64,000 nt of DNA from Candidatus Hermodarchaeota archaeon (lineage in GTDB: Archaea > Asgardarchaeota > Thorarchaeia > Thorarchaeales > Thorarchaeaceae). Below the pieces are notes generated by a model. It made no database searches. It saw only the letters and a program-made list of their open reading frames with translations, and was not told the DNA's origin. Below, one piece after another: positions 1,661 through 55,800 of this stretch. The DNA lies in assembly GCA_048885865.1 (NCBI GenBank), contig JBHLLF010000003.1:64001-128000 (forward strand), read 5' to 3'. Position numbers and translations under genes: made by a program. How positions within the stretch are numbered: the stretch's first letter is position 1; the number at the start of each line of letters is the position of its first letter.

Positions 1661-4324
1661 TTGATGCTTGTTGTTGAAGACACTGCAGAGGGCGAGGTCA
1701 AGCGCTTCCTAGTGGTTGATGCGCTGATACAACTAGGAGAGATTCAGGCCGGTTCTCAAAGCAGAATCTTTGACCCCAATAGGGTGCTCTCATTCTATGA
1801 TATGGTTGAGAATCAGCTACTCGATTACTCAAGCAAATATCCTGAGGCCTTCAAATATGTCCCCCGAAGAGCATATGCCTACCTCAAGAGACCTCCTATT
1901 CTTAGTGAGCTATATCACGATGTTTCTTCTTCAGAACTAGGATGGTTTGCCGATCTTTTCGCAGTGAGACCACTGCTAGGAGTGGGAGATACCAAGCTGC
2001 CCCTCGAACAGCGCAGGAAAAACATCACACGCACTGAGAACTGGAGTGTCACTCCACCCTTTAGCTCAAGATTATATCGACTTCAAGACATGAGATTTGG
2101 CAGCCGAGGTCGAAATGGCTGGGGTGCGGTAATGACCGCTCTGGACCTAAAAGAGTCGCTGAGAAATGACAATCGCACAGACCTCCTGAGCTATTTCAAA
2201 TCCCAGTTGCCGTTGCTAATTGAGATGGAAAAGAAGGAGGACCTTGATTTGCTAATGGAATGGCTGGTCTTCCTAAAGGATGCTGGGCTTGAGGCGCCGC
2301 CCACGCTTTTCCTACTTCGAGATCATAAGGCGTGGAACTCTGAGATCATGCGGCTGCTTCAGATTCCAAATTCCAGATTACTGCTTGCTGGTGCAACAAT
2401 AACCTCATTATCGACAATAATCAAAGACCTTCGCAACTCAACAGGCGATTCTGATTGGTCCAAGAAGTTTGTATTTGCGAGTGCATATCCTGAAACTCAG
2501 AAAGGTGATAGCATTACAGAGATCATCAGCTTTCTTCTGAGTAATAACTTGGGAGCTACTCCTGAAGAGCTGCAGCGGATTCTTGCAGGGAACCTTCTCA
2601 GTATGCTACCGCCAAGGCCTCCATATTACGAGTATGTGGACAACACATCCAGTGTGATTGCAGAAGGATTGATCGGAAAGGCATCACTCAGTGAAATGTC
2701 AAGAATCTTTAGAATCCTCGCGGCCAGAAAGATCCAGATTATCGAGTCTTTTGATTACATGATTGCAAACGAAGGCGGCGAGATCCATCTCAACGATTCG
2801 ATTTTAACTGTAAGAAATCCTATATCAAAGACGGCCAACACTGTTGTATTGCTTAACGAGCCTGATGACTCCCTCACGGTTTCTGGTTGGAGAAATTCTT
2901 TCACAAGAAAATCTCCAGATAGAATGATAGACCCTCTCAAGTCTCTAGTTCAATCAACAGCCAGAACAGATGGCCCCATTCTACAGTCGCCATCAGATAT
3001 AAACCGGTTCAATCGTGCCCTCCTAGACTGCCTGAAAGTGAAGAACATGCAGGAGATTCTTTCCGCGCTGCATTTCAAGCTAAATATGTCAGGTACCAAG
3101 AATGGAACACTGTTGATGTCAGAAGACGATATGCGTGCCATGGGTGTAGCAAATGGAGATTTGGTGTTGGGCATGGATGCCATGGAAGGTCAGTGGTGGG
3201 CAGGCTGTGTCGAACTAGATGCAGGATGTCCTCAACGAACCATTTGTGTTTCAAAAGACGACGCACTTATTCTTGGACTTTCGGAAGATTCGGTTGTGGA
3301 CATAGTCAAGAGCGAAGGCAAGATTAAGAACCTAGAGAAAGCTGTCTTTGCGTTGGACTCGACTAAGGGATTCTCAAGAGCGGAACTGCTGTCATATGCA
3401 TACCTGCATGCAGAGAGACTGCAAAAGACATTGAACGGTCAAATTCTGGGCAAGGGAACTTCAATCTGGATCAATGGTCGTGATGCTGGGGCTTGCATGA
3501 CACTCACGCACTCTGTTCCACCTCTGGATCCTGGAGAATTAGCTAGACTAGCTGGCGACTCATTGGAATTTAGACCTTCACAGATGTTCAGACCATTCAA
3601 CATGATTCTAGCCATATCGACAGATAGTGGAATGGGTGTTCAAGACATTGAACTCAAGACAGTGCAGTCTTTGAAGCGAAGACTGAGCACATTGTCCTCG
3701 ATAGTGCCGGAGATTGAAGACCTCCTATCGAATCTCGGAACCTCAATAACTAGAATGGATATGGCGACACTTGCAGCTTTGCTGCTAATTCAAAGTCTGT
3801 CCGGCAATAGAACTGATGGGTCGTTGGGTATCGTCACAGTTGGAGAAACCCCTACGAAATTCTCAATTCAAAAGGGAGAGATCATTCAGACGAGAATACA
3901 GTTCTCCAATGACTTTGCATCTGAGGATGTTCTGGTGTCAATACTCTATTCGTTATTGGACAGTTCCCGTGATTTCGGAGGTTCGGCCAGATTATCAGGC
4001 GCATTCAGAGCTATAGCCGAGTTCCTAGAAGACTTCGGTTCTGAAATGCCAACACTAATTGTATTGATGGCCAATCTAGGCGGTGAAACCTTCGAAGATG
4101 TGAAACCATTCCTACAAGCAATAGCATCAAGAAACAGATACCAAATAGAGATTCTTAGCCTGGGAGAAGATGCTCAGAGCCTTAGTCCTGATTTCAGAGA
4201 TATCAATGTAAGAGTGCATCACATGACCAGTTTTGCGGCTGATGTTTTTGAGGGCTACTTGGCCAATGTTATTGAGAAACTAGTGATGGGAAATCTTGAC
4301 CATTCTACTTCCGATGCCTTTTGA
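1661..4324 (+). CDS. Multidomain protein: degenerate amidohydrolase paralog + CDC48/VAT N-terminal-like domain + degenerate vWA domain
   Basis: N-half aligns by eye with the 11..1519 protein (VDALIQLG vs VDAHHHMG, FVFASAYP vs LLFGTDY, QRILAGN vs QRILGGN, ESFDYMI vs TSVDYMI). MSEDDMRAMGVANGDLV...ICVSKDDALILGLSEDSVVDIV resembles a double-psi barrel. FNMILAISTDSGM...PTLIVLM...IEILSLG is vWA-like. Confidence 0.65.
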   Translation: MMLVVEDTAEGEVKRFLVVDALIQLGEIQAGSQSRIFDPNRVLSFYDMVENQLLDYSSKYPEAFKYVPRRAYAYLKRPPILSELYHDVSSSELGWFADLFAVRPLLGVGDTKLPLEQRRKNITRTENWSVTPPFSSRLYRLQDMRFGSRGRNGWGAVMTALDLKESLRNDNRTDLLSYFKSQLPLLIEMEKKEDLDLLMEWLVFLKDAGLEAPPTLFLLRDHKAWNSEIMRLLQIPNSRLLLAGATITSLSTIIKDLRNSTGDSDWSKKFVFASAYPETQKGDSITEIISFLLSNNLGATPEELQRILAGNLLSMLPPRPPYYEYVDNTSSVIAEGLIGKASLSEMSRIFRILAARKIQIIESFDYMIANEGGEIHLNDSILTVRNPISKTANTVVLLNEPDDSLTVSGWRNSFTRKSPDRMIDPLKSLVQSTARTDGPILQSPSDINRFNRALLDCLKVKNMQEILSALHFKLNMSGTKNGTLLMSEDDMRAMGVANGDLVLGMDAMEGQWWAGCVELDAGCPQRTICVSKDDALILGLSEDSVVDIVKSEGKIKNLEKAVFALDSTKGFSRAELLSYAYLHAERLQKTLNGQILGKGTSIWINGRDAGACMTLTHSVPPLDPGELARLAGDSLEFRPSQMFRPFNMILAISTDSGMGVQDIELKTVQSLKRRLSTLSSIVPEIEDLLSNLGTSITRMDMATLAALLLIQSLSGNRTDGSLGIVTVGETPTKFSIQKGEIIQTRIQFSNDFASEDVLVSILYSLLDSSRDFGGSARLSGAFRAIAEFLEDFGSEMPTLIVLMANLGGETFEDVKPFLQAIASRNRYQIEILSLGEDAQSLSPDFRDINVRVHHMTSFAADVFEGYLANVIEKLVMGNLDHSTSDAF

Positions 4325-4595
4325 GAGACTCAATTGTAGCTATTCGGGTTTCCAGCAAATCAACCTCAACTTCAATGTCATCTATCGTATTGCCAATTTC
4401 CTCGATTGCATTGAAATGGTCACGAATACTCAATCCTTCCAGCCGAGTAGATTCTGCATCTATAAAGGATAGAATCTCTTTGACACCATTTAAACGCGCA
4501 TGAATTTCCTCAATTATGGCCAGTGTTTCTTCTATCCGGCCTATCGCAGGAGGGATTCTCGGACTCTCTGGCACAAGATTCACATCCGACTTCAT
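4305..4595 (-). CDS. Small coiled-coil protein
   Basis: 96 aa with heptad pattern; start overlaps the upstream stop (translational coupling). Confidence 0.6.
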   Translation of the reverse strand: MKSDVNLVPESPRIPPAIGRIEETLAIIEEIHARLNGVKEILSFIDAESTRLEGLSIRDHFNAIEEIGNTIDDIEVEVDLLETRIATIESLKRHRK

Positions 4596-5833
4596 TCGAT
4601 GAGCTGAGAGGCACGTTCCTCTATTATTCCCAGTCTGGCAGTTAGCTCTTCAAGCCTATCCAGCAGATGTCCAAGCTTGGTGCGCAGCATCCCTACAGCT
4701 GCACCTTCATCTCCTCCAAAATCACCTGTCATCATGGATGAGTTCAGCTGGTCGGCAAGTAATTGGGATTGGTTCTCAATTATCTCCAGCCTCTCAATGA
4801 TTTCCTCAACTGGGAATTTTTCCATGCGCGTTCTTAGGTCATCAACCAATGTCGTAAGAGATTGAGCTGCTCGTTTCTCTTCATCACTAATCATTGGTTT
4901 GACTGGTTCTGCCAAGATGAAGGACTTCTTCACCCCCTCTAGTAAGCCTTCAGGTTTGCTTACCACCACCTCTCTAGTTCTTGTTGGAGGGTGAACTCTG
5001 TCACCCCTCTCGAACCAAGCAGGCACCAGAAATTTGCGTGCAATATCTTCAAGATCTGTATCCAGTAGTATCGCGAAGGTAGCTAATTCTCGTGGATTAT
5101 CCCAGATAGCTAGCTCCACACTGTCCTCCTTTCTAAGAATCGCCGCGGCCACTCCCAGATTCAGATCCTCAAAGATCGGCAAATCAATAAGCCAACGGCT
5201 GAAGAGAAGCGCAAAGGCTGGAATCTGTCTCAACTTCCCGCATCGCAAGGCAATTGAGTATTCCTCCTCCGGTAGTTCAATTGCTTGCTTTATCCAAATT
5301 GATGTGTTGAATTTTCTTCCGGGGATGGTCAGACTAAGAACTTCAGCAGCCTCCCATTCTATGGCGTCTATTCTCAATTGTTCAATATAGTCCAAATGTG
5401 GTTCCTCAAATTCCGGAGAGAGTTTCTCTCCCAGAATATACTTCAAGACAAGGCGAATGATTTCGTGTGGGGAATAGTCACGAAGCCAGATAGTTGTGGC
5501 CAGCTTGACTCGCCCTCGTGCGTGTTCATCATCGGATAACACAACGACCAGCTTCGATGAATCAAGCCCTGGCTCTCCAAGAATGAAGATGCCGGTTCTT
5601 CCAGGAGCATCCATTGCGCGATCAGCCATCAAATGTACAGCATCATGAGTCGGTTCAATGTAATTCTCTTGATTGAATTTCGTAGTTGAAGACTCTTGGA
5701 GTCCTTTTGCTAGCAGCCCTTCCTCAACCCATCCCGATTTGAGTCCCTTTTCTGGAAGTTGCGATATTAGATATCCAAGAACTTCGCTGCTACTATACAT
5801 TGCTTGAAGTCTGGTTATTGCTTCGTCGTTCAC
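4592..5833 (-). CDS. Hypothetical protein with C-terminal coiled coil
   Basis: 413-aa ORF with 4-bp overlaps to both neighbours; no family recognised. Confidence 0.7.
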   Translation of the reverse strand: MNDEAITRLQAMYSSSEVLGYLISQLPEKGLKSGWVEEGLLAKGLQESSTTKFNQENYIEPTHDAVHLMADRAMDAPGRTGIFILGEPGLDSSKLVVVLSDDEHARGRVKLATTIWLRDYSPHEIIRLVLKYILGEKLSPEFEEPHLDYIEQLRIDAIEWEAAEVLSLTIPGRKFNTSIWIKQAIELPEEEYSIALRCGKLRQIPAFALLFSRWLIDLPIFEDLNLGVAAAILRKEDSVELAIWDNPRELATFAILLDTDLEDIARKFLVPAWFERGDRVHPPTRTREVVVSKPEGLLEGVKKSFILAEPVKPMISDEEKRAAQSLTTLVDDLRTRMEKFPVEEIIERLEIIENQSQLLADQLNSSMMTGDFGGDEGAAVGMLRTKLGHLLDRLEELTARLGIIEERASQLIE

Positions 5834-6957
5834 CTGCCAACAACCTCGTTATCAATCCTATCGAATATTCTCTCAATCCTTGGTTTAACTTCTTTGAACT
5901 TGTCTATATGAATCAGACTCCCTTTACCCGCAACCGCAATAGCTTGCATTAAATCCATGTCTGATTCGGTTCCCAGTGCCACGCATGTAACAAAGATGCC
6001 TTGGCTCGCCCCCATTTTTCTTGCTGTAATAACCGGATTGCGACCTGAAGTGAATGCACCACCAGATATGAGTATCACAAGGGTGGGGAGCCCATTCCGC
6101 GATTTCAGTTGGTGTGCTATTTCAATAGACAAATCCATGGCGCTCCCAGGATTTGATGGTTCATCATTGCGGTCATTATTCTGTTCTGAAAGCCAATCAT
6201 GGATTGACTGATATGATTCTGAACTCAACTGAAGCATGCTACCTTCGGTAGTTGCCAATTCTTCGGACGACTCGCCAAACGCAACAGCTGAAACCAAAGC
6301 ATCATCGCACTCCTTGGCAGAGGATAGTATGGTCTCAATTGCACACAGACTAGCTTTGAATCGTGTGATTCCTGCAGTGCCATCTTCCATCTCTATATCT
6401 TCAATACCAGATGATGCTCCCACGTCTACCAAGCAACATAAATTGAAACAAGAAGGAAATTCAGCTTGAGCGGTAAGATTGACCTTCATTAGCTGATTCC
6501 ATATAATCCTAGATGCCTGCAGTTGCTCTGTAACGGGCTTTGAGTTATCCACGATTAATCCTATGCCAAGATCAGCAATATCAATCCGCTGTCCCATTCG
6601 TACAATACGACCATCAAGATGGTCCTTGAGATCATCGATTCGTCTGGATAGAGCATCCACAGCTTTTGTATTCTCTACTCCTTCCAGAGAATCAACAAGC
6701 AGAGATAGCTCATTGGAGTCAGGAATTGCTTCAGGAACAGCTGTCAAGGTAACTTCGCTGTGCTCTTCACATCCCAATTCATTGAATATTCGGGAATCGA
6801 TCACAATGGAGCCAGAAGCTATTCTCTCTGAAGTGCGAATGTCAGTGAAAACAATCACTCCTTCATAGCTCAATTGCGCCGTTGAAATCGTGGTTACAGA
6901 GGGATGCACAAATGAGATTCCTCTCTGGCTTCGCCCTTTGATAGCATCAAGCTCCAA
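5830..6957 (-). CDS. CDC48-N-like domain + vWA domain protein
   Basis: GSIVIDSRIFNELGCEEHSEVTL (psi-barrel-like); FNLCCLVDVGASS, VSAVAFG, LVILISGG, CVALG, MQAIAVAGKG (vWA). Probable TTG start at 6957 after AGGTGTGG; ORF track start 7062 overlaps the upstream gene. Confidence 0.7.
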   Translation of the reverse strand: MELDAIKGRSQRGISFVHPSVTTISTAQLSYEGVIVFTDIRTSERIASGSIVIDSRIFNELGCEEHSEVTLTAVPEAIPDSNELSLLVDSLEGVENTKAVDALSRRIDDLKDHLDGRIVRMGQRIDIADLGIGLIVDNSKPVTEQLQASRIIWNQLMKVNLTAQAEFPSCFNLCCLVDVGASSGIEDIEMEDGTAGITRFKASLCAIETILSSAKECDDALVSAVAFGESSEELATTEGSMLQLSSESYQSIHDWLSEQNNDRNDEPSNPGSAMDLSIEIAHQLKSRNGLPTLVILISGGAFTSGRNPVITARKMGASQGIFVTCVALGTESDMDLMQAIAVAGKGSLIHIDKFKEVKPRIERIFDRIDNEVVGR

Positions 6958-6973
6958 GACCGGCCACCCACAC

Positions 6974-8116
6974 CTAATACAGACGGGTATTGTATATCGC
7001 AGTTGCAAGCGATTTGGAACCATACATGACCTCAACACGAATACTTGCCTTACCTTTTTCATCCGTCATTGGCGTGAGCTGCGATTCAATATGTCGTTCA
7101 GAGTTGGGGCCAATTTCATGCTTTTCATTTGTGACCTCAGACACTCCTTCAGGCGTGATTAATGTGACTATAAGACGGATTCCTATTACAGCTCGACTTG
7201 GATTCTTCACTCTCAAATCATACATGAATGGTCTTCCGGCGATCAGAGCGTCAGGGACTTCACCAAGCTCAACACTCATTCCCATCTTTGATGCTGCAAG
7301 CGGACGACCCTTAGGCCATCTTGAAATTTTGCTGAGCTCAAGCAACCGTGAGAGTGATGTCTTTACATCTCTAATCTCCAGTCCAAGCTGAACTGCAGAC
7401 TCCCCGATGTCAAATGTCCCGTCATTTGCCTCATAGTAGGCAAGAACTCTTCGATCAGATTCAATGAGGTCACTTACTCCTTCAAGGATTTGAAGGATAG
7501 CTTCCGGTAATTCGTGTGCCTCCTGAAGAGAATAGTATCGCCCTCCATCTACCGAATCTGCTATGCTTTTGAATGACTCTCTTACAAGAGGATTGCAGCC
7601 ACAAACGAAAATGAATACAGTTTCCCCGTATCGGCTCTTGAGGGATTGCACTTCCCTCTGAGAGTCATGGCCTTTGGGGCACCCGTCTGGAAAGTAATCA
7701 TCGCTGAGGTTGTTGTACTTTCTGCCATGGGGTGGTGCATCACCGACAAGTAGCAACGCCTTGTAGGCATGTTCATCCCATGAGAGCTTTGTCCTAGCAT
7801 CAAACAATCCGTCAGCAACAGCTTCAGGTGTATCTCCACCCTGAGAAGGATTAAGATTCGATATCTCCCTATGTACGTTCTTGATACGATCCGAAAAATC
7901 GAAAATCCGTGTCACGTAGGAGTGATCCTGAGGCGGATGATCACGGTATGAAACTATTGCGAATCGTATACTCAAATCCCTGGTTCGTGTAGTAATTTTG
8001 TCGACAATGTCAAACAAGCTGTCCTTCACTGCACGAATGTCATCTTTCATTGAACCGGTCGTATCGACCACAAAGGCAACGTCAAGTTTGGCTCGCTGCA
8101 GCCCAATCCACTCCAT
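6974..8116 (-). CDS. vWA domain protein (intact MIDAS) with wHTH-like and Ig-like C-terminal domains
   Basis: DVAFVVDTTGSM, VSYRDH, GGDTPEAVADGL, LVGDAPPHG; C-terminal beta-rich region. Confidence 0.85.
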   Translation of the reverse strand: MEWIGLQRAKLDVAFVVDTTGSMKDDIRAVKDSLFDIVDKITTRTRDLSIRFAIVSYRDHPPQDHSYVTRIFDFSDRIKNVHREISNLNPSQGGDTPEAVADGLFDARTKLSWDEHAYKALLLVGDAPPHGRKYNNLSDDYFPDGCPKGHDSQREVQSLKSRYGETVFIFVCGCNPLVRESFKSIADSVDGGRYYSLQEAHELPEAILQILEGVSDLIESDRRVLAYYEANDGTFDIGESAVQLGLEIRDVKTSLSRLLELSKISRWPKGRPLAASKMGMSVELGEVPDALIAGRPFMYDLRVKNPSRAVIGIRLIVTLITPEGVSEVTNEKHEIGPNSERHIESQLTPMTDEKGKASIRVEVMYGSKSLATAIYNTRLY

Positions 8117-8212
8117 TTGAACCTAGAATATGCCACAATTAAGCCTTTGCTGAGGGAGCAGACGTAGGAGATTTTAGTAGCTTGATTCAATTTAGTGACA
8201 ATGGTGTTTCAG

Positions 8213-8590
8213 ATGAGTGAGAGCGACCTGCCATTGGATGTGGAGTTTGAAGGAGAATTTGTTCTGAGTGCAGTTTTACAAAGAGTAATGGCGCCCCTCA
8301 TTATCGAGGACATCAAATCAAAATTGCCGCTCGAAGGCAGAGCTGCGCTGATGCGTGATGAGATGCAAATAACGCTCGGCATAGGAAGAGGCAACATAAA
8401 ACCAACTAAGGAAGTAAAACGGGGAGACATAGCATACATGCCCTTGGGCGATAATCTCTGTATCTATATTTCTGAGAAAACCACATTCAGCCCGGTCACA
8501 GTCATCGGGCATGTAGAATCAGATGGGGAAAAGTTGAATCAGCTTAAGAGCATAAGACGTGGAAGCATGGCCTTGCTCAGAGCAAAGTGA
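8213..8590 (+). CDS. Cyclophilin-like fold protein (DUF369/TM1367 type)
   Basis: APLIIEDIKSKLPLEG...VKRGDIAYMPLGDNLCIY...PVTVIG. Confidence 0.75.
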   Translation: MSESDLPLDVEFEGEFVLSAVLQRVMAPLIIEDIKSKLPLEGRAALMRDEMQITLGIGRGNIKPTKEVKRGDIAYMPLGDNLCIYISEKTTFSPVTVIGHVESDGEKLNQLKSIRRGSMALLRAK

Positions 8591-8597
8591 TGTAGCT

Positions 8598-9152
8598 CTA
8601 TAGACTCTGCTGAAGGTTCCGTAAAAGCAGCTCATTCTCATCAGGTTCTACTACGGTGGGATCTACAACTATGCCAGATTCATGGGCTTCAATAACCACA
8701 TCAATTCCAGATTGACTAACCTTTTTTATCCCTGAATGGGAGAGAGCTCTCACTCTCAATTGGGTCGTGTCGAACTCGGTCCTATCTGCGGATTCGACCG
8801 CCTTGACGTCTCTGCGCAGTTTTGTCTTTGCTATTCGAAGCTGCTCCTTCAACTGGACCAGTTGGAGCTGAAGGTCAATTCGCTCACGATCTGCCGCCTC
8901 GAATTTTGCTAGAACCTCATCATGCTGAGCCTTTGAAACCAGATTTCGGGTTTGATCAATCCAAGTGATGGTAGTGCCATCAAACCGACGTTTCGTTGAT
9001 ACTTGTCCTAGAGCTTTTAGAACAGCTATTACATCATAGATTCGCCGTTTGGGAGTATTGAGTTGCTCAGCTAATACATCGCTCCTAATCCCTTCCTCCC
9101 CATGTTCCTTTAGTATTCTAAGAGCAGTTTTTGCCAAATCTACTAGCTTCAA
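8598..9152 (-). CDS. E2F/DP-like winged-helix transcription factor with coiled coil
   Basis: LAEQLNTPKRRIYDVIAVLKALGQV matches the E2F/DP RRxYD recognition helix, followed by ITWID, a leucine-rich coiled coil and a beta-rich C-terminus; GGGGTG SD + TTG start. Confidence 0.75.
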   Translation of the reverse strand: MKLVDLAKTALRILKEHGEEGIRSDVLAEQLNTPKRRIYDVIAVLKALGQVSTKRRFDGTTITWIDQTRNLVSKAQHDEVLAKFEAADRERIDLQLQLVQLKEQLRIAKTKLRRDVKAVESADRTEFDTTQLRVRALSHSGIKKVSQSGIDVVIEAHESGIVVDPTVVEPDENELLLRNLQQSL

Positions 9153-9222: not shown

Positions 9223-9230
9223 TATTTAAA
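9223..9230 (-). promoter_or_regulatory. Putative TATA box (TTTAAATA) for the E2F-like gene
   Basis: Archaeal TATA consensus on the minus strand about 70 bp upstream of the start codon. Confidence 0.45.
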
Positions 9231-9243
9231 GGTAGGTGTTATG

Positions 9244-9315
9244 TCTCGATTTTCCGAAATTATTCACTGATAACCATAATTATCATTATTGGAATGATTT
9301 CTCGAAAAATCGAGA
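9244..9315. repeat. Long imperfect inverted repeat in a divergent promoter region
   Basis: TCTCGATTTTCCGAAATTATTC..TGATAA / TTATCA..GAATGATTTCTCGAAAAATCGAGA. Confidence 0.75.
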
Positions 9316-9406: not shown

Positions 9407-10735
9407 ATGACCAGAAAGAAAGTAATAATCATGGGCGCAGCTGGCCGTGATTTCCATAACTTCAACGTATTCTTTCGTGACAATGAGGACTATGAGGTTG
9501 TTGCATTCACAGCTGAGCAGATACCGGGCATTGAGGATAGACTGTATCCTCCAGAATTATCCGGGGACCTTTATCCTGATGGTATCAAGATTTACCCCGA
9601 AGAAATGCTGCCCGAATTGGTTGAGAAGTTTGAGGCGGAACAATGTATTCTGGCATATTCTGACCTATCCTATGACACAGTGGGACACAAGATTGCATGG
9701 GTGAACAGTATCGGTGCAGACATCAGACTCATGGGTACCAACTCAACGATGCTGAAGAGCAAGAAACCAGTCGTTGCGGTCTGCGCTGTTAGAACTGGAT
9801 GTGGAAAAAGCCAGACCTCTCGGCGAGTGAATCAAATTCTGGTTGATATGGGCCTCAAGCCTGTTAACATTCGTCATCCGATGCCATATGATCCTGATCT
9901 CACAACTCAGATAGCACAGCGCTATGAGGTTCTAGAGGATTTGGATAAATACAACTGCACAATTGAAGAACGTGAAGAATATGAACCCATGATCAACATG
10001 GGAGTGATACTCTATGCTGGCATTGACTATGGCAAGATATTGAGGCAGGCTGAGGAAGAAGCTGATGTGATTACGTGGGATGGAGGCAACAATGACTTTG
10101 CGTTCTATCGTCCTGATTTATACATCGTAATCACCGACCCACACAGACCGGGACATGAGGTGTCCTATTACCCAGGTGAAACCAACCTTAGGATGGCTGA
10201 TGTTGTGATCATTAACAAGGTCGACACCGCCGACTATGACTTTGTTGAAGAGGTCAGAGATAACATCATGCGCGTCAATCCGAATGCAATCATCATTGAG
10301 GCCGCCTCGCCTGTCGCTATAGAGGACATGAGCATCATTCGCGGAAAACGAGTACTTGTTGTTGAGGATGGGCCAACTGTCACTCATGGTGGCATGCCTT
10401 ATGGTGCCGGATACATTGCAGCGAGGAAAGCAGGAGCAGAGATTGTGGACCCAAGGCCTTTTGCCGTTGGCTCAATTGAGGACACATTTGAAAAGTACTA
10501 TCATCTTGAAGACGTCCTACCAGCAATGGGATATGGCAAAGCCCAGATGAAAGAGCTCGAAGATACAATCAATAAAGCAGACGTCGATGCGGTTGTGATT
10601 GGCACTCCAATTGACCTCGGGCGACTTATCAAAATTAACAAACCGAGTGTCAGGATCAGATATGACCTACAGGAGATTGGCCGGCCAAATCTCGAAGACA
10701 TTCTCTCGGAGTTTGCTGAGAAGAAAGGCTTGTAG
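9407..10735 (+). CDS. COG2403 P-loop protein (cyclic 2,3-diphosphoglycerate synthetase family; probably arginine synthetase ArcE-like)
   Basis: MGAAGRDFHNFN, AVRTGCGKSQTSR, RHPMPY, TIEEREEYEP, WDGGNND, VEDGPT-THGGM. Confidence 0.8.
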   Translation: MTRKKVIIMGAAGRDFHNFNVFFRDNEDYEVVAFTAEQIPGIEDRLYPPELSGDLYPDGIKIYPEEMLPELVEKFEAEQCILAYSDLSYDTVGHKIAWVNSIGADIRLMGTNSTMLKSKKPVVAVCAVRTGCGKSQTSRRVNQILVDMGLKPVNIRHPMPYDPDLTTQIAQRYEVLEDLDKYNCTIEEREEYEPMINMGVILYAGIDYGKILRQAEEEADVITWDGGNNDFAFYRPDLYIVITDPHRPGHEVSYYPGETNLRMADVVIINKVDTADYDFVEEVRDNIMRVNPNAIIIEAASPVAIEDMSIIRGKRVLVVEDGPTVTHGGMPYGAGYIAARKAGAEIVDPRPFAVGSIEDTFEKYYHLEDVLPAMGYGKAQMKELEDTINKADVDAVVIGTPIDLGRLIKINKPSVRIRYDLQEIGRPNLEDILSEFAEKKGL

Positions 10736-55224: not shown

Positions 55225-55800
55225 CTAGGTCGTGAAACGTGTATCGGAAAGGATGGTTTCAATCAGCAACAAAGCACTGGGAGTTTCTTGATTTTCATTC
55301 CATTCTGATACGAATTCGCGGTATAACGATAATTCTCTCAAGATGTCGAATGATATATCCTCAAGTTCGTCAATTCCAATTTCAGTTCCCGCACCCAAGC
55401 CCGGACAAATCTCTTTCACTGCGCTCAAGCCCCACGTAGTTTCGCCCTCTTTCTCTTGAAACACAAAAGGAAATGACCTGCAGACTCCAGGTCTAAACTG
55501 ATGAATCATGCATAGATCGTCTGACAAGAATATACATTCATTATTTTCCATTTTGCGGAGAGCCATATACGCCGCTCCATGTTCAGTGTTCACAGAAGGT
55601 ATATCCCTCATACCTACGGGCGGGTTACCACCATTTTCTGGTAGCAAATAGAAGTCCAATGCACGAAGTGTCTCGGATGCAGACATACCCAAGAAGAGTG
55701 ATAGTCGGACTATGTCATTGCCGGTGACAGTCACTAGAAGCTCCTCCTCCCTACAACAGGCTCCGCATTTTGTACACTCGAAATGGACCTTAGTTCCCAG
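55225..55800 (-). CDS. YkgJ/CxxCxxCC family Fe-S/Zn cluster protein
   Basis: In-frame extension upstream of ORF-track start 55734 encodes FECTKCGACC; also CIFL, CMIH..RP..CRSFPF, CPG; probable CTG start at 55800 after AGGTGG. Confidence 0.82.
   Translation of the reverse strand: MGTKVHFECTKCGACCREEELLVTVTGNDIVRLSLFLGMSASETLRALDFYLLPENGGNPPVGMRDIPSVNTEHGAAYMALRKMENNECIFLSDDLCMIHQFRPGVCRSFPFVFQEKEGETTWGLSAVKEICPGLGAGTEIGIDELEDISFDILRELSLYREFVSEWNENQETPSALLLIETILSDTRFTT

What the first reader, a model, noticed from the sequence alone, without database searches (positions are those of the whole stretch)
8598..9152. Archaeal E2F/DP-like transcription factor with apparent full DBD + coiled-coil + marked-box layout
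Seen: KRRIYDVIAVLKALGQV followed by ITWID. Established: eukaryotic E2F (KRRIYDITNVLEGIGLI) and DP (RRVYDALNVL) use the RRxYD helix to read DNA, have a conserved Trp at the wing, and continue into a coiled coil and a beta-sheet marked-box dimerisation domain. The same order appears here: helix RIDLQLQLVQLKEQLRIAK, then beta-rich QLRVRA...VVIEAHESGIVVD. Inference: a prokaryotic, possibly homodimeric, precursor of the E2F/DP cell-cycle regulators. Asgard homologues may already be catalogued, but its regulon is not known to me.
Basis: partly seen in the sequence, partly recalled or inferred. Interest (0 to 1): 0.85.

Follow-up and report, generated by a model that had tools for sequence, protein, structure and literature searches.

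The report
Asgard E2F homodimer with candidate targets
This Thorarchaeota gene encodes a small relative of the eukaryotic cell-cycle factor E2F, a family already published for Asgard archaea; beyond the literature, it probably pairs with itself, and the textbook E2F DNA site is conserved in front of these archaea's genes for making DNA building blocks.

Summary
Confirmed: a 184-aa ORF (8598-9152, minus) whose winged helix passes Pfam E2F_TDP (36.2 bits, cut-off 25.7; TrmB 14.5), then a long helix and a five-strand beta domain. It is the single-copy Thorarchaeota member of the Asgard E2F/DP family published by Eme et al. 2023, who say these proteins lack a dimerisation domain. Here the tail is predicted to self-pair (0.47, best control 0.00; possibly from likeness to solved E2F/DP), and its beta domain is kept in most Asgard lineages. 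That it is a marked box is unproven: no profile signal, but E2F versus DP marked boxes gave none either. The E2F-type site TT[GC]GCGC sits in the divergent thymidylate synthase / thioredoxin-like-NrdD promoter in 21 of 26 Thorarchaeota (background 4%) and before an unnamed 252-aa gene in 30 of 30, mostly with the GGCGCC core of E2F homodimers. Similar sites precede the E2F gene itself in Baldr- and some Heimdallarchaeia. Binding is inferred, not shown. The scan had noted the dimer and the thyA site before on other DNA; I retested both. The reported MCM site is coding and ambiguous.

The parts
8598..9152 (-). E2F-family gene, 184 aa, TTG start
   Evidence: homologues 55-93% identical named Thorarchaeota; one PF02319 locus in G000
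8958..9137 (-). Winged-helix DNA-binding domain (residues 6-65), PF02319 over cut-off
   Evidence: PDB sequence hits E2F8 (4yo2, E 1.9e-6) and E2F4 (1cf7, E 0.017) with the profile
9033..9047 (-). RRIYD recognition motif (residues 36-40)
   Evidence: sequence; R36, R37, D40 invariant in 86 homologues
8808..8933 (-). Long helix (residues 74-115), predicted parallel two-stranded coiled coil
   Evidence: helix 74-123; self-contacts 77-77, 80-80, 84-84, 87-87, 94-94 in the dimer model. Absent in the short Heimdallarchaeia-type homologues
8658..8777 (-). Five-strand beta domain (residues 126-165), predicted to pair strands between subunits; candidate marked-box homologue
   Evidence: conserved in 74 Asgard rows, with or without the coiled coil; pLDDT 89.5 alone; inter-subunit pairs 126-127 with 161-163 and 130-134 with 152-156
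8604..8639 (-). C-terminal helix (residues 172-183); no pocket-protein-binding or transactivation tail
   Evidence: the protein ends at residue 184
9223..9230 (-). TATA-like box TTTAAATA, about 70 bp upstream of the start codon
   Evidence: sequence; equivalent box in other Thorarchaeota E2F promoters; inference
9244..9315 (.). Inverted repeat, arms 9244-9257 and 9302-9315; the TATA-proximal arm (about CGAAAAATCG on the minus strand) is conserved in Thorarchaeota but has no GCGC core, so it is not a canonical E2F site
8195..8590 (+). Convergent cyclophilin-like gene (PF04126); neighbour of the E2F gene in Thor-, Jord-, Baldr-, Hel-, Sifarchaeia and others: a synteny marker of vertical descent
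9407..10735 (+). Divergent P-loop GTPase-like gene (weak CobW hit), conserved neighbour in most Thorarchaeota

Best explanation
It is the Thorarchaeota copy of the Asgard E2F/DP family, working as a homodimeric sequence-specific transcription factor. Shown: E2F-type winged helix with intact RRxYD; one copy per genome; a conserved C-terminal beta domain. Predicted: two chains zip through a parallel coiled coil and lock by pairing beta strands across subunits, which would hold two DNA-binding domains together as E2F-DP does. Inferred: the two RRxYD helices read a near-symmetric site, TT(T)GGCGCCAA(A), the GGCGCC core reported for E2F homodimers. Through it the factor controls dNTP supply, at the divergent promoter of thymidylate synthase and the thioredoxin-like/anaerobic ribonucleotide reductase (NrdD) genes, and an unnamed 252-aa basic protein. 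No DP partner, pocket protein or transactivation tail was found, so the input is not Rb/CDK. The sign is not determined; I lean activator (about 55%) because the site lies over 100 bp upstream of the TATA box of the 252-aa gene rather than on it. Step odds: E2F-family DBD 0.97; homodimer 0.8; binds these sites 0.75; beta domain homologous to the marked box 0.6.
For: Family; among 1.84 billion proteins the profile's 56 hits are Asgard proteins and eukaryote-type E2F proteins, with no TrmB-type protein among the 44 I read. Single copy; 75 of 85 family genomes carry it, each listed one once. Dimer model for residues 68-184: score 0.47, best of 3 controls 0.00; the mark was reached by 20 of 30 proteins solved as pairs of one chain and 1 of 23 solved as single chains; runs agree in at least 92% of contacts, pLDDT at least 72; a like complex (E2F/DP) is solved, so the pass may be from likeness. 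Sites: TT[GC]GCGC within 250 bp of thyA in 21 of 26 Thorarchaeota (12 of 15 genera) against 4% of G000 genes; GCGCCAA is the top de novo 7-mer, and by eye the flanks do not align across genera. The region is the divergent thyA / thioredoxin-like-nrdD promoter. 30 of 30 orthologues of the 252-aa gene, picked by protein similarity, have the site at -176 to -229. A target-blind 12-mer search found 108 sites against 23 for the reversed control in 86 genomes, and at least 28 of 71 inspected lay before that gene. Sites also precede the E2F gene itself in 4 of 4 Baldrarchaeia loci and 6 of 14 Heimdallarchaeia-type loci (expected 0.26 and 0.4). GGCGCC is the site bound by E2F homodimers and TTGGCGGGAA by E2F/DP (Morgunova 2015, PMC4686757).
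Against: No binding data; motif-protein link is by consensus likeness and co-occurrence. Kin genomes are not independent. The site is absent before the 252-aa gene's homologues in E2F-bearing Jordarchaeia and family f2 (0 of 7) and before the thymidylate-synthase-like genes seen outside Thorarchaeota (start calls there partly unreliable), so the regulon is lineage-specific. No such site before the Thorarchaeota E2F gene. Three genomes of 91-92% completeness (G371, G324, G365) keep the site but show no E2F gene, explainable by incompleteness but not proven. The own-promoter pattern was relaxed after seeing the sites. PF16421 and PF08781 do not match. [quoted passage not shown]
Confidence: 0.68

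Rival explanations
1. Same homodimeric E2F-family factor with the same sites, but the C-terminal beta domain is an Asgard-specific dimerisation module unrelated to the eukaryotic marked box; eukaryotes gained CC-MB by later fusion, as Eme et al. propose.
For: No match to PF16421 or PF08781; hhalign against 117 E2F marked boxes P 0.15 and against DP P 0.12; Hermodarchaeia, family f29 and one f28 paralogue carry a different tail, so tails can be swapped; Eme 2023.
Against: The E2F and DP marked boxes, counterparts in one pseudo-symmetric dimer (own knowledge), give no signal against each other in the same tests (P 0.23, Z -1.0), so the tests lack power. Same position and order as CC-MB, five short strands, inter-subunit strand pairing. 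The weak hhalign register places the third-fourth strand region on the DP SISND..EYL segment. Residues 70-184 in context drew an E2F_CC-MB cluster as first Atlas hit (0.75, a lead only).
Confidence: 0.35
2. The protein is a real E2F-family factor, but the conserved GGCGCC sites are read by another Thorarchaeota regulator (for example the Lrp/AsnC gene directly downstream of thyA), and the E2F regulon lies elsewhere.
For: An AsnC-type regulator follows thyA in most loci; the promoter of the 252-aa gene holds several other conserved palindromes; the site does not follow E2F presence outside Thorarchaeota at that gene.
Against: The motif equals the published E2F consensus; the base-contact residues are invariant; related sites sit before the E2F gene in two other classes; thymidylate synthase and ribonucleotide reductase are classical E2F targets in animals (own knowledge); Lrp sites are AT-rich (own knowledge).
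Confidence: 0.2
3. A generic archaeal winged-helix regulator (TrmB-like) whose RRxYD resemblance is convergent.
Against: PF02319 over cut-off in 58 of 58 members while TrmB is under cut-off in the query; beyond Asgard the profile reaches eukaryote-type E2Fs; none of 14 control genomes rings; family published as E2F/DP.
Confidence: 0.03

Closest known systems
Asgard archaeal E2F/DP homologues (Eme et al. 2023, Nature 618:992, PMC10307638, Suppl. 4.1.5; arCOG02749; reviewed in PMC7617429)
   Same: Same family: PF02319 domain with conserved base-contact residues; their list holds sequences identical or near-identical to homologues fetched here.
   Different: The paper says they lack the dimerisation domain and the passage read names no targets; here a conserved self-pairing tail is predicted and candidate sites and targets are found.
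Typical eukaryotic E2F1-6 and DP (PF02319 + PF16421 or PF08781; PDB 1CF7, 2AZE, 5TUU)
   Same: RRxYD winged helix, wing Trp, then coiled coil and a beta region; dimeric reading of a T-tract/GCGC site; thymidylate synthase and ribonucleotide reductase as targets (inferred here).
   Different: One gene, homodimer rather than E2F-DP heterodimer; 184 aa with no pocket-binding or transactivation tail; no PF16421/PF08781 match; A instead of N in DxxNVL; no Rb or DP found in G000 (87% complete).
Atypical E2F7/E2F8 (PDB 4YO2)
   Same: Best PDB sequence hit (E 1.9e-6 with the profile); independent of DP and pocket proteins.
   Different: E2F7/8 carry two DNA-binding domains in one chain; this protein has one, followed by a coiled coil and beta domain.

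Membership tests
E2F/DP family (PF02319) | Winged-helix domain over the Pfam cut-off | tested here: met
   36.2 bits vs 25.7; 58 of 58 members
E2F/DP family (PF02319) | RRxYD recognition motif and wing Trp | tested here: met
   R36, R37, D40, W64 invariant, Y39 over 90% in 86 rows
E2F/DP family (PF02319) | Nearest non-Asgard relatives are eukaryotic E2F, not TrmB | tested here: met
E2F/DP family (PF02319) | Binds TT[GC][GC]CGC-type DNA | not testable with these tools
   Only indirect: conserved matching sites
Asgard E2F/DP homologues (Eme 2023) | Asgard genome, single short PF02319 protein, conserved neighbourhood | tested here: met
   Thorarchaeota homologues; 139 of 400 phylum genomes; cyclophilin-like neighbour across classes
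Typical E2F1-6 / DP | Coiled coil after the DNA-binding domain | tested here: met
   helix 74-123; parallel self-contacts in the model; prediction only
Typical E2F1-6 / DP | Sequence match to E2F_CC-MB (PF16421) or DP (PF08781) | tested here: not met
Typical E2F1-6 / DP | Marked-box fold (intertwined inter-subunit beta sandwich) | tested here: inconclusive
   Inter-subunit strand pairing predicted; profile tests lack power, as the E2F-DP control also fails; a 51-residue monomer is a poor query for fold search
Typical E2F1-6 / DP | Heterodimer with a separate DP/E2F partner | tested here: not met
   One PF02319 locus in G000 and in every listed family genome with a match; G000 is 87% complete
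Typical E2F1-6 / DP | Pocket-protein-binding/transactivation tail and an Rb partner | tested here: not met
   Protein ends 19 residues after the beta domain; no RB_A match in G000 (genome incomplete)
Atypical E2F7/8 | Two DNA-binding domains in one chain | tested here: not met
   One PF02319 stretch
TrmB-type regulators | PF01978 over cut-off | tested here: not met
   14.5 bits vs 25.6

The most novel reading that the evidence does not exclude
The Asgard protein keeps the whole ancestral E2F/DP unit: its tail is the true homologue of the coiled coil-marked box, working as a symmetric homodimer, and it already controls dNTP-supply genes (thymidylate synthase, ribonucleotide reductase) through the eukaryotic E2F site. 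The E2F-DP heterodimer would then come from duplication of one homodimeric gene, not from later domain fusion, and the core of the G1/S programme would predate eukaryotes.
Probability: 0.4. Interest if true: 0.82.

Novelty: new member of a known kind. Interest (0 to 1): 0.6.

Why it matters
The gene family is known, but in the papers I could search neither its mechanism nor its targets are described, and Eme et al. say it lacks a dimerisation domain. If a one-gene homodimer reads the same DNA word as human E2F and sits on thymidylate synthase and ribonucleotide reductase, the link between E2F and DNA-precursor supply is older than eukaryotes, and the E2F/DP pair has a simple origin. A 184-aa protein and a 12-bp site make this testable in vitro without culturing the organism.

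Tried and rejected
Fold searches: the full model returned only winged-helix families; the 51-residue beta-domain model found no PDB match by Foldseek or VIA, and in the Atlas only its own family (TM 0.85); none of this excludes the marked box. Atlas features: the E2F_CC-MB hit for residues 70-184 (0.75) was not repeated when residues 105-183 were given alone, so it may come from context. Profile comparisons with E2F and DP marked boxes: no signal; the DP set was nearly all identical animal sequences, and the E2F-DP positive control failed too. MCM as target: 11 of 23 have the motif, but it lies in the 3' end of the upstream GINS-like gene, spelling Trp-Arg-Glu/Gln; CGC is used there more than its roughly 10% genome share, so dual use is possible, but I do not count it. 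Hermodarchaeia excess of the palindrome (13 of 19 genomes): rejected, mostly coding (a conserved LWRQI peptide). Twelve Thorarchaeota palindromes lie inside one conserved coding gene. Class II ribonucleotide reductase: patchy, no intergenic site. Autoregulation in Thorarchaeota: no canonical site. A wider regulon in Heimdall-/Baldrarchaeia: only the E2F gene itself recurred. The 252-aa gene: no Pfam, NCBIfam or PDB match; the RdgC idea of earlier notes could not be tested by fold. Tree of 70-residue domains: too few columns to order Asgard, E2F and DP. No RNA holder listed. The structure papers for the E2F1-DP1 and E2F4-DP1 dimerisation domains are not held, so strand topology is from memory only.

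Full report
Observation. Residues 6-65 match Pfam E2F_TDP (PF02319) at 36.2 bits against a cut-off of 25.7; TrmB (14.5) and HTH_11 (18.7) stay under theirs. Close homologues are Thorarchaeota proteins of 55-93% identity, and all 58 aligned match PF02319. The AlphaFold2 model (mean pLDDT 82) shows a winged helix, one helix from 74 to 123, five strands in 126-165 and a last short helix. The layout is real; 'marked box' is the part to be tested.

Family and range. A profile search of 1.84 billion representatives gave 56 hits: Asgard proteins first, then eukaryote-type E2F proteins, several with PF16421. In the PDB the profile finds E2F8 (E 1.9e-6) and E2F4 (E 0.017) through the recognition helix. 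G000 (87% complete) has one PF02319 locus, no DP or CC-MB match and no Rb match. PF02319 is found in 139 of 400 phylum genomes: 75 of 85 in the own family, most Hermod-, Jord-, Hel-, Sif- and Baldrarchaeia and one Heimdallarchaeia family (lineage names), and almost none in the largest family (3 of 135, weak). The convergent cyclophilin-like gene neighbours it in several classes, which points to vertical descent. A tree of the 70-residue domain sets Asgard rows apart from E2F and DP with weak support and cannot say more.

What is already known. Eme et al. [quoted passage not shown] A 2024 review repeats that Asgard E2F homologues exist. NCBI names some members 'E2F family transcription factor'. 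So the gene is a member of a published family.

The tail. The beta domain is conserved in 74 diverse Asgard rows, including 113-133-aa forms that have no coiled coil; Hermodarchaeia, family f29 and one f28 paralogue carry another tail. Alone it folds with pLDDT 89.5. Two copies of residues 68-184 gave a score of 0.47 against a best control of 0.00; the mark was reached by 20 of 30 proteins solved as pairs of one chain and 1 of 23 solved as single chains; runs agree in at least 92% of contacts, pLDDT at least 72. The interface is a parallel coiled coil (77, 80, 84, 87, 91, 94) plus strand pairing across subunits (126-127 with 161-163; 130-134 with 152-156). This supports binding but does not show it, and since E2F/DP dimers are solved the pass may reflect likeness. 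That arrangement is what I recall for the E2F1-DP1 coiled coil and intermolecular beta sandwich (own knowledge; papers not held). Sequence tests for marked-box homology gave nothing significant, but the E2F and DP marked boxes also fail to recognise each other in the same tests, so the result is inconclusive. I put homology at about 0.6 on position, strand number and predicted pairing.

Candidate DNA sites. Earlier scan notes suggested E2F-type sites before thymidylate synthase; I tested this on my own loci. TT[GC]GCGC (either strand) lies within 250 bp of thyA in 21 of 26 Thorarchaeota, 12 of 15 genera, against 4% of G000 genes; three of the five misses have near matches; GCGCCAA is the top de novo 7-mer. 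In G000 the site is at C77:3030-3043. The region is a divergent promoter: thyA on one side, a small thioredoxin-like gene and the anaerobic ribonucleotide reductase NrdD (E 2e-136) on the other. A search for the 12-mer TTT[GC]GCGC[GC]AAA that assumed no target found 108 sites in 86 family genomes against 23 for the reversed pattern; of 71 inspected, at least 28 lay before one unnamed 252-aa gene (G000 C25:31922), mostly at about -200, although its protein diverges to 28% and its upstream neighbour changes. Taking the 30 best orthologues by protein similarity, 30 of 30 have the site at -176 to -229. One-sided G/C changes and half sites argue for a double-stranded protein site, not a hairpin (inference). 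The pooled sites are mostly GGCGCC-core, the form that Morgunova et al. 2015 report for E2F homodimers, as against TTGGCGGGAA for E2F/DP.

Limits of the site evidence. Kin are not independent. Homologues of the 252-aa gene outside Thorarchaeota have no site, whether the lineage has E2F or not (0 of 19), so the regulon is lineage-specific. The Thorarchaeota E2F promoter has no canonical site; its inverted repeat (9244-9315) has a conserved arm without a GCGC core. Two apparent signals proved to be coding: the MCM site lies in the end of a GINS-like gene, and the Hermodarchaeia palindromes mostly spell a conserved peptide. One further line ties motif to protein: TTGGCGCC precedes the E2F gene in 4 of 4 Baldrarchaeia loci (3 genomes) and TTTGGCGG in 6 of 14 loci of the Heimdallarchaeia family f10, expected 0.26 and 0.4; in a genome-wide pattern search of these lineages the E2F gene was the only recurrent downstream gene (3 hits). 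That pattern was chosen after seeing the sites, though both variants are the published eukaryotic ones.

Mechanism. Most likely (0.68): a homodimer, joined by coiled coil and paired beta domain, places two RRxYD helices on a near-symmetric TT(T)GGCGCCAA(A) site and regulates dNTP-supply genes and the 252-aa gene; there is no Rb/CDK input, and the sign is open (slight lean to activation from the distal position). Rivals: the tail is an unrelated Asgard module (0.35, compatible with the rest); the sites belong to another factor such as the AsnC regulator after thyA (0.2); a generic winged-helix protein (0.03).

Verdict. Observation confirmed; interpretation partly supported. New member of a known kind. 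Interest 0.6: the family is catalogued, but the predicted self-pairing tail goes against the published statement and the conserved sites make the origin of the E2F programme directly testable.

Noticed in passing
G000 C25:31700-31922 (L280) and L281-L329: The promoter of the unnamed 252-aa gene holds more conserved elements: a CATAC..GTATG inverted pair, a TATA box near -90, and TTCCAnnRGAA followed by AGGTCAGT-like bases; the TTCCA..GAA element is kept in 16 of 20 non-Thorarchaeota homologues (background under 1%), in two copies in several f13 genomes. Probably the site of another regulator, perhaps the gene's own product.
   Followed up: partly
G000 C25:31922-32680 (L191:1423-2178): Unnamed 252-aa protein with a lysine-rich N-terminus, found in Thor- and Jordarchaeia, f2, f13 and one f8 genome; no Pfam, NCBIfam or PDB match. 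Strongest candidate E2F target.
   Followed up: partly
L055-L061, L073, L075, L077, L079-L082: Hermodarchaeia, family f29 and one f28 paralogue have the E2F domain fused to a different C-terminal domain, with a two-residue insertion before KRR; f28 genomes carry both types.
   Followed up: no
L035-L038, L043-L050: Some Baldrarchaeia and Heimdallarchaeia genomes have two E2F paralogues; heterodimers like E2F-DP are possible there.
   Followed up: no
window 9244-9315: Inverted repeat upstream of the E2F TATA box; the proximal arm (about CGAAAAATCG, then ATAACAC) is conserved in most of 15 Thorarchaeota promoters: a candidate site for an upstream regulator.
   Followed up: partly
window 55225-55734 (minus): CxxCxxCC (PF03692) gene; its orthologue lies next to the E2F gene in Jord-, Baldr- and Helarchaeia and f28, but 46 kb away here.
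   Followed up: partly
G000 C1:136520 (L199) and L173, L176, L200, L208, L222: E2F-type site between a 90-aa unnamed gene and an EMC3/TMCO1-like gene in several genera; a possible third target.
   Followed up: no
G000 C4:153399 and C9:83089: High-scoring intergenic sites: one near a contig end beside a 122-aa unnamed gene, one 225 bp before a gene that looks by eye like CDC48/VCP; conservation not tested.
   Followed up: no
window 1661-8116: Cluster of VWA-domain genes (5830-7062, 6974-8116) with an 887-aa gene and two unnamed genes next to the E2F locus; the 6974-8116 gene is a conserved Thorarchaeota neighbour.
   Followed up: no
L357, L358, L360, L363: Class II ribonucleotide reductase ORFs of 1005-1408 aa against 678 in G000, and MCM ORFs of about 1220 aa in L352-L355: probable inteins.
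   Followed up: no
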